Origin: Escherichia coli O127:H6 str. E2348/69
Lineage (GTDB): Bacteria; Pseudomonadota; Gammaproteobacteria; Enterobacterales; Enterobacteriaceae
Length of the DNA stretch: 64,000 bases
Assembly: GCF_000026545.1 (NCBI RefSeq)
Contig: NC_011601.1
Strand: one strand, 5' to 3'
In this document: positions 49,701 to 58,700 of the stretch, piece by piece
Layout of the letters: each line of letters begins with the position of its first letter
How positions within the stretch are numbered: position 1 is the stretch's first letter
Program-made: the position numbers

Positions 49701-52700
49701 ATAGACCAGATCCAGCTTCGCGTCATAGGCCGCTGGTGCCCACGAGTTTGGTGAGTTAAAGGTAAAGGTGTGTTCGTCAGACGGGATCGCATTCGGATCT
49801 TTCGCGCCCGGATCAAAAGCCCACAGCAGCTCCCCGGTGTTGACATCAAAACCACGGATCACGCCAGACGTTTCGCGGGTTGAGAAGTTGTCGGTGACTG
49901 AACCGGCCATCACGATGGTTTTATCGGTGATAATCGGCGGCGAAGTCGGTTCATACAGACCCGGTTTGGTGTCCGGCATATTGCTTTGCAGATTGAGCAC
50001 GCCTTTATTGGCGAAGGTTTCGCACAGCTTGCCGTTTTCAGCGTTAATTGCAATCAGACGACCATCATTGACCGGAAGAATGATACGACGCGGGCAATCC
50101 GCCATCACTTCCGGCGAGGCAGTTTCTGCTTTGGCTTCATGATAAGAGACGCCACGGCAGGTTACATGCTGGAAGGACTCGTTGGTTTTCAGCTCAGGAT
50201 CGTAATGCCATTTCTCTTTGCCGCTGGCGGCATCCAGCGCAAACAGACGTTGGTGCGCGGTACACAGGTAAAGGGTGTCGCCCACTTTAATTGGCGTCAC
50301 TTCATTGGTGATTTCGCCCGGATCGTTCGGCTGCTTCACATCGCCAGTACGGAACACCCAGGCTTCTTTCAGCTTGTGGACGTTATCAGCGTTAATTTGT
50401 TTCAGAGGTGAAAAGCGTTGACCTTCCTGATTGCGACCATAGGCAGGCCAGTCCTGATCGGCAACGGGGGAGATGGCTTCTGCTGGCGTGGTATCGGCGC
50501 TTAAGGTGCCGCTGATTTCCTGCGGATCGTTAAATCCGGCCCAGGTCAGGATACCACCGCTAATCAACAGCGCCACCACCAGTGCGGCAACTGCGCCGCT
50601 GGCAGGAGTGACCAGGCGACGCCAGACAAACGGCAGGATCAGCCAGATGCCGAAGAAGACCAGAATGTCGCTGCGCGGAGTCAGCGCCCAGAAGTCGAAA
50701 CCAACTTCCCAGACGCCCCAAATCATAGTGCCGAGCAGCAGGGCTGCGTACAGCCAAAGCGCGGCGCGTTTACTGCGCCACAGCATCCAGGCGACGCCGA
50801 GCATCACAAGGCCAGCGATAGGGTAGTACCAGGAGCCGCCAATCGCGACCAGCCAGCCTCCGCCAATGAGTAGATACAGCCCGCAAAGCGCTGCAAAAAG
50901 GGCTGTTAGCGTGACGAGTAATCGCCGCGAGCCGGTATTGTTAATTGCCATAAAGAGACACCATTTCAATTCATTAATATTTTAGTAGCAATTAATTATA
51001 GGTTTTAACATATGTGATCGTCATCACAATTCGAGCTTTATTAACAGATTCCGCGAATGAATAGTTTTACTGGTATACTGCGTGTCTTGCGCTTTGTTGC
51101 GGTGCCAAAACCTGCCCGTGCGAAGTGATTTGTTTTTAAATCATATGGTTATAGATATGAAACATACTGTAGAAGTAATGATCCCCGAAGCGGAGATTAA
51201 AGCGCGTATCGCCGAACTGGGTCGTCAGATTACTGAGCGTTACAAAGACAGCGGCAGCGATATGGTGCTGGTGGGTCTGCTGCGAGGCTCATTTATGTTT
51301 ATGGCGGACCTGTGCCGTGAAGTTCAGGTATCTCATGAAGTCGACTTTATGACCGCCTCCAGCTACGGTAGCGGCATGTCCACCACCCGTGATGTGAAAA
51401 TCCTCAAAGATCTGGATGAAGATATCCGTGGCAAGGACGTGCTGATTGTTGAAGATATCATCGACTCGGGGAATACACTGTCGAAAGTGCGTGAGATCTT
51501 AAGCCTGCGCGAACCGAAGTCGCTGGCGATTTGTACGCTGCTGGATAAACCGTCCCGTCGTGAAGTGAACGTCCCGGTAGAATTTATCGGTTTCTCGATC
51601 CCGGATGAGTTTGTGGTGGGTTACGGCATTGATTACGCACAGCGTTACCGTCATCTGCCGTATATCGGTAAAGTGATTCTGCTGGACGAGTAAGTGTGAA
51701 GTTGCCGGATGTGTTGCATCCGGCATGGCATTTTTATTTGTGGTTGGCGTGTTTCAGCTTGAGGTTGGAGATCCCGTGACGGTAACGTTGCTCAAGGGTT
51801 TCGCGGTTGGTGGCGGTAACATCCAGATCACGCAGCAAGCCGTCGTGAATGCCGTAGGCCCAGCCGTGAATGGTAACTTTCTGCCCGCGTTTCCACGCTG
51901 ATTGCATAATGGTGGAGTGGCCCAGGTTATACACCTGTTCCATGACGTTCAGTTCACACAAGGTATCCAGACGGCGCTCTTGCGGCATTTCGCCGAGCAA
52001 TGAGCTATGTTTGAACCAGATATCGCGGATATGCAGCAGCCAGTTGTTGATAAGCCCCAGTTCTGGGTTTTCAACGGCGGCTTGTACGCCGCCGCAACCG
52101 TAGTGGCCACAGATAATAATGTGTTCAACTTCGAGTACATCCACTGCATACTGAACCACGGAAAGGCAGTTCAGGTCGGTGTGAATGACCAGGTTAGCAA
52201 CATTACGGTGAACAAAGAGTTCGCCCGGCTCAAGACCGGTTAAACGTTCTGCAGGAACGCGACTGTCGGAACATCCAATCCATAGAAAGCGCGGTTTTTG
52301 CGCTTGTGCCAGTTTCTCAAAAAACCCGGGATCCTCTTCCACCAGCATTTTTGACCATAGTGCATTGTTGCTGATGAGTGTATCTATGTCTTTCATGGAG
52401 GTTAACGACCTGTAACCAAATAATTACGTTTGGCTAATATAGGGCAACTCCGGGACGATTTAAACCACAGATAAAGTGTAAGAACGTAAGGTAAGTAAAA
52501 ATTTATGACCATTGCACTGGAAATTCAACAGCTTAAAAAAACCTATCCAGGCGGCGTTCAGGCGCTTCGTGGAATCGATTTGCAGGTCGAAGCGGGTGAT
52601 TTTTATGCGCTTCTCGGGCCGAACGGGGCCGGAAAATCGACCACTATCGGTATTATCAGCTCTCTGGTAAATAAAACCTCCGGGCGGGTCAGCGTATTTG

Positions 52701-55700: not shown

Positions 55701-58700
55701 CAGTCACATACTCATTTTTTGCATCGGGTGGATGGTTATCGGCGGCCTATATTGCTGAGCCGTAGTGAGCACAATATTCTGTTTGATTTTGCACGTTCAC
55801 GCCGCGCTCTGGCGCAATTTAATCCACATGTTTTGTATCTTTCTTATCCATTTGGCGGATTTAATGACAAAGCCGTGAAGGCAGCAAAAGAAGCCGGATT
55901 TCACCTGGCGGTGACGACCATGAAAGGCAAAGTAAAACCGGGGGATAATCCGTTGTTACTAAAACGACTTTATATCTTAAGAACGGATTCGCTGGAGACG
56001 ATGTCGCGGCTGGTGAGTAACCAGCCGCAGGGATAACAATCAGGCAACCTGTACCGGAATCGCTTTCGCGGTACGTTTCATTTCGTTGTCGCCTTCAAAA
56101 TAGGCGACGTTGGGTCGCCAGGTGCGAGCTTCTTCATCTGGCATGGTAACGAAGCTGGCGATGATGACAATATCGCCGACGCTGGCGCAGTGGGCCGCCG
56201 CACCGTTAACAGAAATAATTCTCGAACCGCGTTCTGCCGCGATGGCATAGGTGGAGAAACGCTTGCCGTTGGTGACATTCCAGATATCAATGGCTTCGTT
56301 TTCGAGAATACCGGCTGCGTCAAGAAAATCCTGATCAATGGCGCAAGAACCTTCATAGTGCAGGTCCGCATGAGTCACTTTCACGCGGTGGAGTTTGCCC
56401 TGCAGCATCGTGCGAATCATAACTTCTACCTTTCTACCCTGTCGTTAACGAAGCAGGCGATGCCTGCTTTGAGGAAATTCTCACGCAGTATTGCCCGATT
56501 TTTGTTTAGTGTCTACTCATCTGACGGCATTTGCATCAGCAGTTTGCGTACCGTGCCGAAGCGTGCCATGTAACGCCTGTAACCAATTGAAATTTATCTG
56601 AACGCTGCTCGGTAAACACTAAAGAGGCGGCTGACGACGGCACACCTTGACTGGATACTGCCTTCACGCAAGACCACACGGAAGGCAGGGAAGATGGATG
56701 CACCGAGTACCACACCGCATGATGCGGTGTTTAAACAATTTTTAATGCATGCGGAAACGGCTCGCGACTTTCTGGATATCCATTTGCCAGCGGAGCTACG
56801 CGAACTGTGTGACCTCGACACGCTGCATCTTGAGTCGGGGAGTTTTATTGAAGAAAGCCTGAAAGGGCACAGCACTGACGTGCTTTATTCCGTGCAAATG
56901 CAGGGCAACCCCGGTTATTTGCATGTGGTGATTGAACATCAAAGCAAGCCGGATAAGAAAATGGCCTTTCGCATGATGCGTTATTCTATTGCTGCCATGC
57001 ACCGGCATCTGGAGGCTGACCACGATAAGCTGCCGCTGGTGGTGCCAATTCTGTTTTATCAGGGCGAGGCCACACCTTATCCGCTATCAATGTGCTGGTT
57101 TGATATGTTTTACTCACCGGAACTGGCGCGACGCGTCTATAACAGTCCTTTCCCGCTGGTGGATATCACTATCACACCGGATGACGAAATCATGCAACAT
57201 CGGCGGATTGCGATTCTCGAACTGCTGCAAAAACATATTCGCCAGCGCGACTTAATGTTATTGCTGGAGCAACTGGTCACGCTGATTGACGAAGGGTACA
57301 CTAGCGGAAGTCAGTTAGTTGCCATGCAAAACTATATGCTGCAACGCGGTCATACTGAACAAGCGGATTTGTTTTATGGTGTGGTGAGAGACAGGGAAAC
57401 GGGAGGGGAGTCTATGATGACGCTGGCGCAGTGGTTTGAAGAGAAGGGGATTGAAAAAGGAATGGAGAAAGGGATTGAGCGGGGGATTGAGAAAGGAATG
57501 GTGAAAGGAATAGAGATAGGAATTGAGAAGGGGATTCAGCAAGGAAGACAGGAAGTAAGTCAGGAATTCGCCCTGCGTCTTCTGAGTAAAGGAATGTCTC
57601 GGGAAGACGTTGCAGAGATGGCAAATTTACCTCTTGCTGAGATTGATAAAATGATTAACTAAGTTGTCTGCATTATGAATAATTGCCTACAGATAACGTG
57701 GCAATGAATAACTGGCGCCATCAGCCGTAGCGCCAGTTAAGCATTACGCCAGTTCGACCAGTTTGTTGTCGATCAGGCGAGCATCGCCAAGCCAGGCGGC
57801 TACCAGAATCACTGCGCGTTTGCTGTTTTCAGAGACTTCCAGCAATGTGTCGGCATCACGAATCTGAATATCATCGGAACGGAAACCTTTTTCATTCAGT
57901 TCTTGCCCGGCAATAGCAATAATTTCATCGAGATCCCGTTCGCCAGCCTGCAATTTGTCGGCAATCGAACTTAAAACCTTGTACAGACCGGGCGCAATTT
58001 TGCGTTGTTCCGCCGTCAGATAACCGTTACGGGAACTCAGCGCCAGACCGTCTTTCGCACGCATAATCGGTACGCCGACAATCTCAATATCGAAGCCCAT
58101 ATCAGCAACCATTTTGCGGATCAGCGCCAGTTGCTGAAAATCTTTTTCACCGAAGCAAGCGATATCTGGCTGGACCAGGTTGAACAGCTTGCTGACAATA
58201 GTCGAAACGCCGCGAAAATGTCCCGGACGGCTGGCACCTTCCAGCATGGTGGAAAGACCGGGAACATCAACATAGGTGTGGGTTTCAGTACCGTTCGGGT
58301 AGATCTCTTTTACCGAAGGCGCGAAAACTAAATCCACTTTACGTTTGTTCAGCTTTTCGCAGTCCTCTTGCAAGGTCCGTGGATAACGTGCCAGATCTTC
58401 CGGGCGGTCAAACTGCATTGGGTTAACGAAAATACTGACGACGACCACATCGGCGCGGGCTTTGGCTTCGTCGACCAGCTTCATATGGCCGTCGTGCAGG
58501 TTACCCATGGTGGGCACCAGCGCCACGCGCTTACCTTCCATACGCAGGCGGCGAATTTGCTGACGCAGCAGCGGCAGGGTTTCGATAATTAACACAACGT
58601 CACTCCTTAATGGAAACTGTGTTCTTCGCCCGGGTAAACACCGGACTCCACTTCAGCCATATACTGCCGCACAGCCGCGCGGATGTCGCCCGTTTCGGCG

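What the first reader, a model, noticed from the sequence alone, without database searches (positions are those of the whole stretch)
52505..56036. yadG-yadH-yadI-yadE: ABC-2 exporter, EIIA-like protein and secreted polysaccharide deacetylase of unknown role
This is a co-directional cluster of uncharacterised genes: an ABC ATPase and ABC-2 permease (overlapping, so probably co-translated), a PTS EIIA-like protein, and a signal-peptide-bearing NodB-type deacetylase. The combination suggests export or modification of a surface glycan, but the substrate is unknown.
Basis: inference. Interest (0 to 1): 0.25.

Follow-up and report, generated by a model that had tools for sequence, protein, structure and literature searches.

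The report
yadGH, yadI, yadE: three separate units
The four E. coli genes are real and correctly identified, but they are an ordinary, already catalogued patchwork of a two-gene exporter operon, a stray sugar-uptake component and a separately expressed periplasmic deacetylase, rather than one glycan-export system.

Summary
The window is E. coli O127:H6 E2348/69.

Only yadG and yadH form a tight unit. They share an ATGA overlap with a Shine-Dalgarno site, and a strong hairpin follows the yadH stop in nearly every Enterobacterales genus examined. Published data give yadI and yadE their own active promoters.

Gene content is nested across Enterobacterales:
- yadGH is always present.
- yadE is present in only some families. 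Elsewhere it lies next to other genes: lpxM and eptA/PAP2 in Plesiomonas, mukFEB in Pasteurellaceae, and cell-wall genes in Bacillota.
- yadI is present in only a subset.

In Edwardsiella the yadI orthologue sits next to an N-acetylgalactosamine (aga) PTS cluster, so yadI belongs with sugar PTS genes.

YadE has a signal peptide, two SH3b domains and a catalytically complete CE4 de-N-acetylase domain of the PgaB/IcaB/PplD type. There are no glycosyltransferase or polymerase genes at the locus.

Published links are to the cell envelope: YadH with Mla and outer-membrane lipid asymmetry, yadE with LPS genes, and yadI deletion with colistin tolerance. A loose envelope theme therefore remains possible. 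A dedicated surface-glycan export operon is not supported. These are known y-genes and interest is low.

The parts
52397..52504 (.). can-yadG divergent intergenic region containing the yadGH promoter
   Evidence: 108-bp spacer. An RpoD holoenzyme SELEX site is listed for can <> yadG, with the operon given as 'yadGH' (PMC3946193).
52505..53431 (+). yadG, the ATPase subunit of an ABC-2 (type V) exporter, DrrA/NodI-like with an ABCA-like nucleotide-binding domain
   Evidence: Pfam ABC_tran 115.9 bits. TIGR01188 drrA covers residues 13-300 but scores below its cut-off. The closest solved nucleotide-binding domains are ABCA3, ABCA4 and ABCA1, E 1e-67 to 1e-57.
53415..53431 (+). Translational-coupling junction: Shine-Dalgarno AAGGAG followed by an ATGA stop/start overlap
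   Evidence: Read directly from the sequence.
53428..54198 (+). yadH, the ABC-2 permease
   Evidence: Pfam ABC2_membrane 137.5 bits. NCBIfam PRK15066 449.9 bits. The only solved relatives found by sequence are Wzm (6oih/6m96, E 5e-6) and TarG (6jbh, E 4e-3).
54205..54238 (+). Probable intrinsic terminator of yadGH: 12-bp GC-rich stem, 6-nt loop, then UUUU
   Evidence: Fold z-score -3.5, with 0 of 200 shuffles folding as well. A hairpin of -17 kcal/mol or stronger follows the yadH stop in 14 of 20 genera where a hairpin was scored, each with a different sequence. None of 60 random coding windows reached -17.
54237..54264 (+). Sigma-70-like promoter for yadI (TTGACG-16-AACAAT)
   Evidence: Consensus scan. 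Reg-Seq reports an active transcription start and a CRP-like activator site for yadI, strongest in stationary phase (PMC12133099).
54303..54743 (+). yadI, an orphan AgaF-like PTS EIIA (mannose family)
   Evidence: Pfam EIIA-man 104.7 bits. AgaF model 102.9 bits, below the 130 cut-off. His9 aligns with the phospho-His10 of IIA-Man 1PDO. His9 and Asp66 are invariant in the family.
54755..54786 (+). AU-rich hairpin in the yadI-yadE spacer, overlapping an extended -10 element (TGCTACAAT, 54766-54774), the likely yadE promoter
   Evidence: The hairpin scores -11.7 kcal/mol, within the range of random coding windows, so it is not a convincing terminator. The extended -10 was read from the sequence. 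Reg-Seq reports an active yadE promoter with a repressor site and RpoS-dependent expression.
54807..54863 (+). YadE signal peptide (residues 1-19, cleavage after VSA; no lipobox cysteine)
   Evidence: Sequence. AF2 predicts an N-terminal helix followed by a low-confidence linker.
54879..55286 (+). YadE tandem SH3b-like beta domains (residues about 25-82 and 104-160)
   Evidence: The AF2 model has pLDDT 91 and two all-beta domains. 16 of 32 family members hit Pfam SH3_3, best E 1e-9. Foldseek hits NlpC/P60 proteins that carry SH3b domains: 3npf, 4r0k, 3h41 and 6biq.
55302..56036 (+). YadE CE4/NodB de-N-acetylase domain of the PgaB/IcaB/PplD subtype
   Evidence: Pfam Polysacc_deac_1. Invariant H176, D239, D240, H301, H306, D327 and R387. 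Foldseek target-normalised TM-scores: PplD 6dq3 0.88, IcaB 4wcj 0.85, PgaB 3vus 0.75. phmmer finds 4wcj at E 1e-18.

Best explanation
The cluster is a mosaic of three units that are adjacent by descent. It is not one operon.

1. yadGH is a self-contained, translationally coupled, terminator-bounded bicistronic operon. It encodes a slowly evolving housekeeping ABC-2 (type V) exporter. Its most likely role is in envelope lipid or glycolipid homeostasis: ATP hydrolysis by a YadG dimer drives YadH to move an amphipathic substrate out of the inner membrane. This role is inferred.

2. yadI is an AgaF-like PTS EIIA that retains its phosphorylatable histidine. It is expressed from its own promoter and has been separated from its amino-sugar PTS partners. 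In Edwardsiella its orthologue still sits beside an agaR/agaVWE cluster. It probably accepts phosphate from HPr and acts as a spare or regulatory EIIA. This is inferred.

3. yadE is separately expressed. It encodes a soluble periplasmic, metal-dependent de-N-acetylase, targeted by two SH3b domains, that converts GlcNAc to GlcN in an envelope glycoconjugate. Gene neighbours in other genera and published genetic interactions point towards LPS or lipid-A-related glycolipid, or the cell wall, rather than PNAG. The substrate has not been shown.
For: Shown here:
- ATGA overlap with a Shine-Dalgarno site.
- A strong hairpin plus U-run after yadH, kept in structure but not sequence across genera and above a random-window control.
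- Promoter-like elements before yadI and yadE.
- Nested gene content. yadGH alone. yadGH-yadE without yadI. A fimbrial operon or an inversion separates yadGH from yadI-yadE in Superficieibacter and Shimwellia.
- Edwardsiella carries a yadI orthologue followed by agaR, an agaS fragment, agaV, agaW, agaE and an agaF fragment, then yadE. Orthology is supported by shared family-specific motifs.
- The YadE catalytic set is complete, and its architecture and fold are established.
- YadE homologues outside the synteny are never next to ABC-2 or EIIA genes.
- The two Plesiomonas paralogues lie next to lpxM and next to PAP2 plus an eptA-type gene.
- Non-synonymous divergence differs 3-5 fold between the units: YadG/H 0.03-0.06, YadE 0.08-0.19, YadI 0.16-0.25.

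From the literature:
- The transcription unit is listed as yadGH (PMC3946193).
- yadI and yadE each have an active promoter with different regulation (PMC12133099).
- yadGH is retained in the reduced Serratia symbiotica SCc genome (PMC3471834).
- yadE shows aggravating genetic interactions with LPS / Kdo2-lipid A genes (PMC2672614).
- YadE's function was still unknown in 2025 (PMC12440217).
Against: - The yadH terminator has only four U residues, so some read-through into yadI is possible. The yadI-yadE hairpin is not significant, so yadI and yadE may be partly co-transcribed.
- yadGH-yadE adjacency is retained in 24 of 32 surveyed YadE-bearing loci (Enterobacterales plus one Pasteurellaceae), and in Thorsellia with different flanks. 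This could reflect selection for linkage.
- All three units have envelope-related phenotypes in the literature, so a functional connection is not excluded.
- No transcript data were analysed here.
- The substrates of YadGH and YadE, and the phosphorylation of YadI, are all untested.
Confidence: 0.6

Rival explanations
1. yadGHIE is one functional system that exports a surface glycan (YadGH), modifies it (YadE), and is regulated by the PTS through YadI.
For: The genes are co-directional with short gaps. YadH's only solved sequence relatives are the glycan exporters Wzm and TarG. YadE is closest to exopolysaccharide and cell-wall-glycan de-N-acetylases. The four-gene order is conserved in many Enterobacteriaceae.
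Against: A conserved terminator follows yadH and separate promoters exist (PMC12133099). yadI is absent from half of the YadE-bearing loci, and yadE is absent from whole families that keep yadGH. There are no glycosyltransferase, polymerase or priming-enzyme genes in the neighbourhood. YadG has no Wzt-type carbohydrate-binding extension: the DrrA model spans residues 13-300 of its 308. The Wzm and TarG matches are weak (29.7 and 20.1 bits). The YadI orthologue associates with an aga PTS.
Confidence: 0.07
2. A two-part envelope module. YadGH and YadE cooperate in outer-membrane lipid or LPS homeostasis, for example by export or flipping of a glycolipid that YadE then de-N-acetylates, or by parallel contributions to outer-membrane charge and asymmetry. 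yadI is an unrelated later insertion.
For: yadGH-yadE adjacency occurs across Enterobacteriaceae, Yersiniaceae and Budviciaceae, and in Thorsellia with rearranged flanks. YadH has a published link to Mla (10.1101/2024.04.10.588480; PMC11131202). yadE has genetic interactions with LPS genes (PMC2672614). YadE paralogues lie beside lpxM, PAP2 and eptA in Plesiomonas. The yadI::kan deletion raises colistin IC50 6-20 fold and YadI overexpression has no effect, which fits an effect on the downstream yadE (PMC12624714; the polar-effect reading is my inference). The YadG nucleotide-binding domain is most like those of ABCA lipid exporters.
Against: yadGH persists without yadE in Pectobacteriaceae and Erwiniaceae. 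yadE persists without yadGH nearby in Hafnia, Providencia, Plesiomonas and Pasteurellaceae. A terminator lies between the two even in genomes that lack yadI. Adjacency among related genomes may be plain inheritance.
Confidence: 0.25
3. YadGH is simply a low-specificity drug or metabolite efflux pump of the DrrAB type, unrelated to envelope biogenesis and to its neighbours.
For: The best NCBIfam subfamily matches are DrrA and DrrB. YadH overexpression raised cyanidin-3-glucoside output by 15% (Lim 2015, as cited in PMC11026601). It is often listed among putative multidrug transporters.
Against: The DrrA and DrrB scores are far below their cut-offs (238.8 vs 312; 78 vs 223). The protein is very slowly evolving, universally syntenic in Enterobacterales, and retained in a reduced endosymbiont genome (PMC3471834), which suggests a housekeeping role. 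A 15% effect on overexpression is weak evidence.
Confidence: 0.1

Closest known systems
Wzm-Wzt and TarGH (ABC-2 / type V exporters of undecaprenyl-linked glycans)
   Same: Separate ATPase and six-helix ABC-2 permease genes. They are the only solved structures detectable from the YadH sequence.
   Different: The matches are weak (E 5e-6 and 4e-3). YadG has no carbohydrate-binding extension. The locus has no glycan-synthesis genes.
DrrAB / NodIJ family and eukaryotic ABCA lipid exporters
   Same: YadG matches the DrrA model over its full length (238.8 bits). Its nucleotide-binding domain is most similar to ABCA3, ABCA4 and ABCA1. The gene pair is overlapping.
   Different: The scores are below every equivalog or subfamily cut-off. 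The substrate is unknown. The published link is to Mla and outer-membrane lipid asymmetry, not to drugs or Nod factors.
AgaF and IIA-Man (ManX N-terminal domain, 1PDO)
   Same: EIIA-man fold family. His9 aligns with the phospho-His10, and the Asp in the LTD motif is conserved.
   Different: It scores below the AgaF cut-off (102.9 vs 130). E. coli has no adjacent EIIB, EIIC or EIID genes. The family has its own invariant Cys and His residues (C30, C49, H53, H81, H83, C86, H129) whose role is unknown; absence from IIA-Man was seen for C49, H53 and H81 in the one pairwise alignment.
PgaB / IcaB (PNAG de-N-acetylases) and PplD (streptococcal linkage-unit GlcNAc de-N-acetylase)
   Same: CE4 domain with the catalytic His placed ahead of the Asp-Asp motif, and an H-x4-H metal motif. 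Foldseek target-normalised TM-scores are 0.75-0.89. All are secreted.
   Different: YadE scores below the PgaB and IcaB equivalog cut-offs (106 vs 322; 98.5 vs 248). It has no PgaB C-terminal domain and no pgaCD or icaAD neighbours. It has two N-terminal SH3b domains instead.
SddA (YibQ), the E. coli periplasmic deacetylase of denuded peptidoglycan strands
   Same: A periplasmic deacetylase of the same superfamily. YadE was listed alongside it as a candidate peptidoglycan deacetylase (PMC12440217).
   Different: SddA belongs to a different Pfam family (PF04748) and sits in a different operon (with envC). YadE activity has not been tested.

Membership tests
ABC-2 (type V) exporter, two-gene form | ATPase with an ABC_tran domain, plus a separate permease with an ABC2_membrane domain, encoded side by side | tested here: met
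   Both Pfam hits exceed their cut-offs. The genes share a 4-bp overlap.
Glycan-exporting ABC-2 systems (Wzm/Wzt, TagGH/TarGH, KpsMT) | Location within a glycan-biosynthesis cluster containing glycosyltransferases and a priming enzyme | tested here: not met
   The neighbours are cueO, gcd, hpt, can, panD, rpnC and panCB. The same backbone is found in other genera.
Glycan-exporting ABC-2 systems (Wzm/Wzt, TagGH/TarGH, KpsMT) | Sequence membership in a curated exporter family | tested here: not met
   No Wzt, TagH or KpsT model appears among the best hits. The best are DrrA and NodI, both below cut-off. Wzm scores 29.7 bits and TarG 20.1 bits.
Single operon (one transcription unit yadGHIE) | No terminator or internal promoter between the genes | tested here: not met
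   A conserved hairpin plus U-run follows yadH. Promoter-like sites precede yadI and yadE. Reg-Seq found active promoters (PMC12133099). Transcripts themselves were not examined.
Conserved gene cluster (functional linkage by co-occurrence) | The genes co-occur and stay adjacent across distant taxa | tested here: not met
   Distribution is nested: yadGH in all, yadE in fewer, yadI in fewer still. YadE homologues in Plesiomonas, Providencia, Pasteurellaceae and Bacillota have no ABC-2 or EIIA neighbours. yadGH-yadE adjacency does hold within several Enterobacterales families and in Thorsellia.
PTS EIIA, mannose family | EIIA-man domain with the phosphorylatable histidine | tested here: met
   Pfam 104.7 bits against a cut-off of 21.4. 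His9 aligns with His10 of 1PDO and is invariant. Phosphorylation itself cannot be tested with these tools.
PTS EIIA, mannose family | Cognate EIIB, EIIC and EIID genes in the same locus | tested here: not met
   These genes are absent from the window (tblastn). They are present next to the orthologue in Edwardsiella.
AgaF (GalNAc/GalN PTS EIIA equivalog) | Score above the NCBIfam equivalog cut-off | tested here: not met
   102.9 bits against a cut-off of 130.
CE4 / NodB metal-dependent deacetylase | Asp-Asp motif, His-His metal ligands and a catalytic His all conserved | tested here: met
   D239, D240, H301, H306 and H176 are invariant in 32 sequences. The fold matches PplD, IcaB and PgaB.
PgaB / IcaB PNAG de-N-acetylase | Equivalog score and linkage to PNAG synthase genes | tested here: not met
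   106.1 against 321.9 for PgaB, and 98.5 against 248.4 for IcaB. No pgaCD or icaAD genes were seen in any locus examined.
SH3b cell-wall-targeting module | Bacterial SH3 fold that binds peptidoglycan | tested here: inconclusive
   The fold and family are supported, though the E. coli protein itself has no significant Pfam SH3 hit. Binding cannot be tested here.

The most novel reading that the evidence does not exclude
YadE may be a periplasmic de-N-acetylase that acts on an LPS- or ECA-type glycolipid rather than on PNAG or peptidoglycan. It would create free amino groups that alter outer-membrane charge and polymyxin susceptibility. YadGH would contribute to the same outer-membrane lipid homeostasis pathway alongside Mla. 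On this reading, the colistin tolerance of the Keio yadI::kan mutant reflects altered yadE expression rather than loss of YadI.
Probability: 0.15. Interest if true: 0.55.

Novelty: already known. Interest (0 to 1): 0.25.

Why it matters
These are four of E. coli's remaining genes of unknown function. Showing that they form three units rather than one stops a tidy but unsupported 'glycan export operon' annotation from spreading. It also sharpens the experiments worth doing. yadGH should be studied with mla and outer-membrane lipid genes. yadI should be studied as a PTS component. yadE should be studied as a cell-envelope de-N-acetylase with a possible link to LPS and polymyxin. If that last link were real it would add a new envelope modification in a clinically relevant context. 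At present it rests only on gene neighbourhood and indirect genetics.

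Tried and rejected
- The three word-indexed protein searches listed only close relatives (at least 82%, 81% and 67% identity). They gave no distant contexts. Distant YadE relatives came instead from the representative-library search and the genome scan.
- I could not obtain distant YadH orthologues. The reported placement of yadGH-like genes (BCAL0307/0308) downstream of mla genes in Burkholderia therefore remains a literature claim (PMC11131202, PMC7253759). Bernier 2018 and Babu 2018 themselves are not held.
- The Rfam scan of 51500-57000 found nothing meaningful.
- I suspected that the 586-599-aa 'YadE' database entries were YadI-YadE fusions. The two examined (P0002, P0004) are stop-codon-loss alleles that extend antisense into panD.
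- I considered the yadI-yadE hairpin as a terminator and rejected it, because it lies within the range of random coding windows.
- The description of YadE as a lipoprotein (PMC11018118) is not supported. The E. coli and Salmonella signal peptides contain no cysteine.
- The salt-resistance paper that matched 'yadh' was a false hit on an author name.
- dS between genera is saturated, so only dN values are informative.

Full report
**Identity and observation**

The 4.5-kb region is 100% identical to E. coli O127:H6 strain E2348/69. At least 80% of it is present in 5424 of 5426 complete E. coli genomes. Pfam assigns ABC_tran, ABC2_membrane, EIIA-man and Polysacc_deac_1, all above their curated cut-offs. 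The yadG stop overlaps the yadH start (ATGA at 53428-53431) and AAGGAG lies 7 nt upstream.

**Transcription structure**

- Seven bases after the yadH stop there is a 12-bp GC-rich stem with a 6-nt loop and UUUU (54205-54238). It folds with z = -3.5, and none of 200 shuffles folded as well.
- I located the yadH stop in 21 Enterobacterales genomes and scored the downstream spacer in 20 of them. A hairpin of -17 kcal/mol or stronger follows the stop in 14, usually within 2-30 nt. Each has a different sequence, and many are followed by a T-rich tail.
- As a control, none of 60 random 105-nt coding windows reached -17 kcal/mol; the median was -8.3. The structure is therefore conserved while the sequence is not, as expected for a terminator. 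It is present whether the next gene is yadI, yadE or panD.
- Immediately after the hairpin lies a TTGACG-16-AACAAT promoter-like site, followed by a good Shine-Dalgarno site for yadI.
- The yadI-yadE spacer contains an extended -10 element, TGCTACAAT. The hairpin there (-11.7 kcal/mol) is not above background.
- Published data agree. A genomic SELEX study lists the unit as 'yadGH' (PMC3946193). Reg-Seq found separate active promoters: yadI with a CRP-like activator site and strongest expression in stationary phase; yadE with a repressor site that is relieved by salt or phenazine methosulfate, plus RpoS-dependent expression (PMC12133099).
- I examined no transcript data myself. The four-U tail makes partial read-through possible.

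**Comparative gene content**

I collected loci around YadH homologues and around YadE homologues from one genome per species, then mapped the E. coli proteins onto them. The backbone hpt-can-yadG-yadH-...-panD-panC-panB is shared across Enterobacterales, but the middle varies:

| Arrangement | Genera |
|---|---|
| yadGH directly next to panD | Pectobacterium, Erwinia, Sodalis, Tatumella |
| yadGH-yadE, no yadI | Serratia, Yersinia, Budvicia, Cronobacter, Siccibacter, several Enterobacter-like species |
| yadGH-yadI-yadE | Escherichia, Salmonella, Citrobacter, Kluyvera, Enterobacter cloacae, Leclercia, Pluralibacter and others |

- The cluster is broken in several lineages. A chaperone-usher fimbrial operon separates yadH from yadI-yadE in Superficieibacter. 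The hpt-can-yadGH block is inverted in Shimwellia. Hafnia has cueO-yadE-panD with no yadGH nearby.
- Thorsellia keeps can-yadG-yadH-yadE with otherwise different flanks.
- Of 32 YadE-bearing loci from Enterobacterales (plus one Pasteurellaceae locus) in the genome scan, 24 have yadGH directly upstream and 16 carry yadI.
- Non-synonymous divergence from other genera is 0.03-0.06 for YadG and YadH, similar to the housekeeping neighbours. It is 0.08-0.19 for YadE and 0.16-0.25 for YadI.

**yadI**

- YadI aligns with E. coli IIA-Man (1PDO). Its His9 falls on the phosphorylated His10. Its best curated family is AgaF, but below the cut-off.
- In Edwardsiella ictaluri and E. hoshinae, yadH is followed by an EIIA that is 43-46% identical to YadI. 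It shares YadI's distinctive motifs (NMLSRMMCDALH, HKHxxCEV, SLWH) and the invariant His9 and Asp66.
- That EIIA is followed by agaR (above its equivalog cut-off), an agaS fragment, agaV and agaW (both above cut-off), agaE, an agaF fragment, and only then yadE.
- The identity of this EIIA falls in step with that of YadE across genera: 70/80% in E. cloacae, 61/67% in Shimwellia, 44/55% in Edwardsiella. This fits orthology.
- YadI therefore belongs with amino-sugar PTS genes. In E. coli it is an orphan EIIA, kept at its full 146-aa length across the genera sampled, which argues against decay.
- A Keio yadI deletion, like a ptsI deletion, shows a 6-20-fold higher colistin IC50. YadI overexpression had no effect (PMC12624714). 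This fits either a PTS role or a polar effect on yadE.

**yadE**

- The family alignment shows H176, D239, D240, H301, H306, D327 and R387 to be invariant. That is the full catalytic set of a PgaB/IcaB-type CE4 enzyme.
- The AF2 model (pLDDT 91) has a signal helix, two all-beta domains and the NodB barrel.
- Foldseek places the barrel closest to PplD (target-normalised TM-score 0.88), IcaB (0.85) and PgaB. The N-terminal part matches NlpC/P60 proteins that carry SH3b domains. Half of the family members hit Pfam SH3_3.
- There is no lipobox cysteine, so YadE is a soluble periplasmic protein.
- Full-length relatives outside the syntenic locus occur in Plesiomonas (two paralogues), Providencia and Pasteurellaceae. 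At 29-42% identity they also occur in Bacillota.
- None of these relatives is next to an ABC-2 transporter or an EIIA gene. Their neighbours are:
  - Plesiomonas: one paralogue lies 150 bp downstream of lpxM. The other is followed by a PAP2 phosphatase and a convergent eptA-type phosphoethanolamine-lipid A transferase.
  - Providencia: a convergent cluster of a fatty-acid desaturase, a hydroxylase and a PAP2 gene.
  - Pasteurellaceae: a fixed position between a PP-loop ATPase gene and mukFEB.
  - Bacillota: SLH proteins, an Amidase_3-SH3_3 protein and an NAGPA glycosidase. One homologue carries CWB2 repeats in place of SH3b.
- Hu et al. 2009 placed YadE with Kdo2-lipid A pathways and found aggravating genetic interactions (PMC2672614). 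In 2025 it was still described as of unknown function, and as one of three periplasmic candidates for peptidoglycan deacetylation (PMC12440217).
- I infer a periplasmic de-N-acetylase acting on an envelope glycoconjugate, leaning towards LPS-related glycolipid or the cell wall. The substrate is not shown.

**yadGH**

- By sequence, the permease finds only Wzm and TarG among solved structures, and weakly. The ATPase is most like the nucleotide-binding domains of ABCA lipid exporters, and like DrrA and NodI below their cut-offs.
- There are no glycan-synthesis genes nearby.
- Secondary citations of Babu 2018 state that YadH acts with the Mla system to preserve outer-membrane lipid asymmetry. In Burkholderia, yadGH-like genes are reported downstream of the mla genes.
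- yadGH is among the few transporter genes kept in the reduced Serratia symbiotica SCc genome.
- Overexpression raised anthocyanin export by 15%.
- A housekeeping envelope lipid or glycolipid exporter is the best guess. It remains an inference.

**Verdict**

The cluster is best read as three units. yadI is a lineage-restricted, PTS-derived gene, and yadE is a variably present neighbour of a universal yadGH operon. A looser envelope connection between yadGH and yadE remains possible (about 0.25). The single glycan-export-system model is unlikely (about 0.07). These are known, annotated y-genes, so novelty is low and interest is about 0.25.

Noticed in passing
window 54303-54743 (YadI); alignment A2: Beyond the PTS His9 and Asp66, the YadI family has invariant Cys30, Cys49, His53, His81, His83, Cys86 and His129. 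In the single pairwise alignment with IIA-Man (1PDO), Cys49, His53 and His81 are not shared. They could form a metal-binding or redox-sensitive site.
   Followed up: partly
window 56034-56036 (yadE stop); proteins P0002 and P0004: Some E. coli lineages carry yadE alleles whose stop codon is lost, for example TAA changed to TCA. These give 588-591-aa products that read about 180 codons antisense through panD.
   Followed up: partly
protein P0125 (12-kb JGI metagenome contig): A single metagenomic gene call fuses YadH to YadI by read-through of the spacer. It may be a sequencing error.
   Followed up: no
L008 versus window 54600-55800: In a genome labelled E. coli (SCPM-O-B-8794), the flanking genes are 93-100% identical in DNA to the window. 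The 3' end of yadI and most of yadE drop to 63-83%. Identity is lowest over the signal peptide and first SH3b domain. This suggests allelic replacement or fast evolution of yadE.
   Followed up: partly
L089 3892-6296 and L090 5001-8576 (Plesiomonas shigelloides): Two YadE-family paralogues each sit next to lipid A modification genes: lpxM in one case, and PAP2 plus an eptA/MCR-like phosphoethanolamine transferase in the other.
   Followed up: partly
L038 4102-4509 and 6572-7072 (Edwardsiella ictaluri): In the aga cluster between yadI and yadE, agaS and agaF are reduced to fragments. The spacing in E. hoshinae (L037) would allow a full-length agaS. This looks like pseudogene decay in the fish pathogen.
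   Followed up: no
window 56694-57662: rpnC (yadD), an Rpn-family recombination-promoting nuclease or transposase-like gene, sits between panD and panC. It is absent from the same position in Pectobacterium, Serratia, Cronobacter and Erwinia.
   Followed up: no
L012 2085-7007 (Superficieibacter) and L004 7630-10771 (Enterobacter hormaechei): Chaperone-usher fimbrial operons have inserted at different points of this locus: between yadH and yadI in one genus, and after yadE in the other. The region appears to be an insertion hotspot.
   Followed up: no
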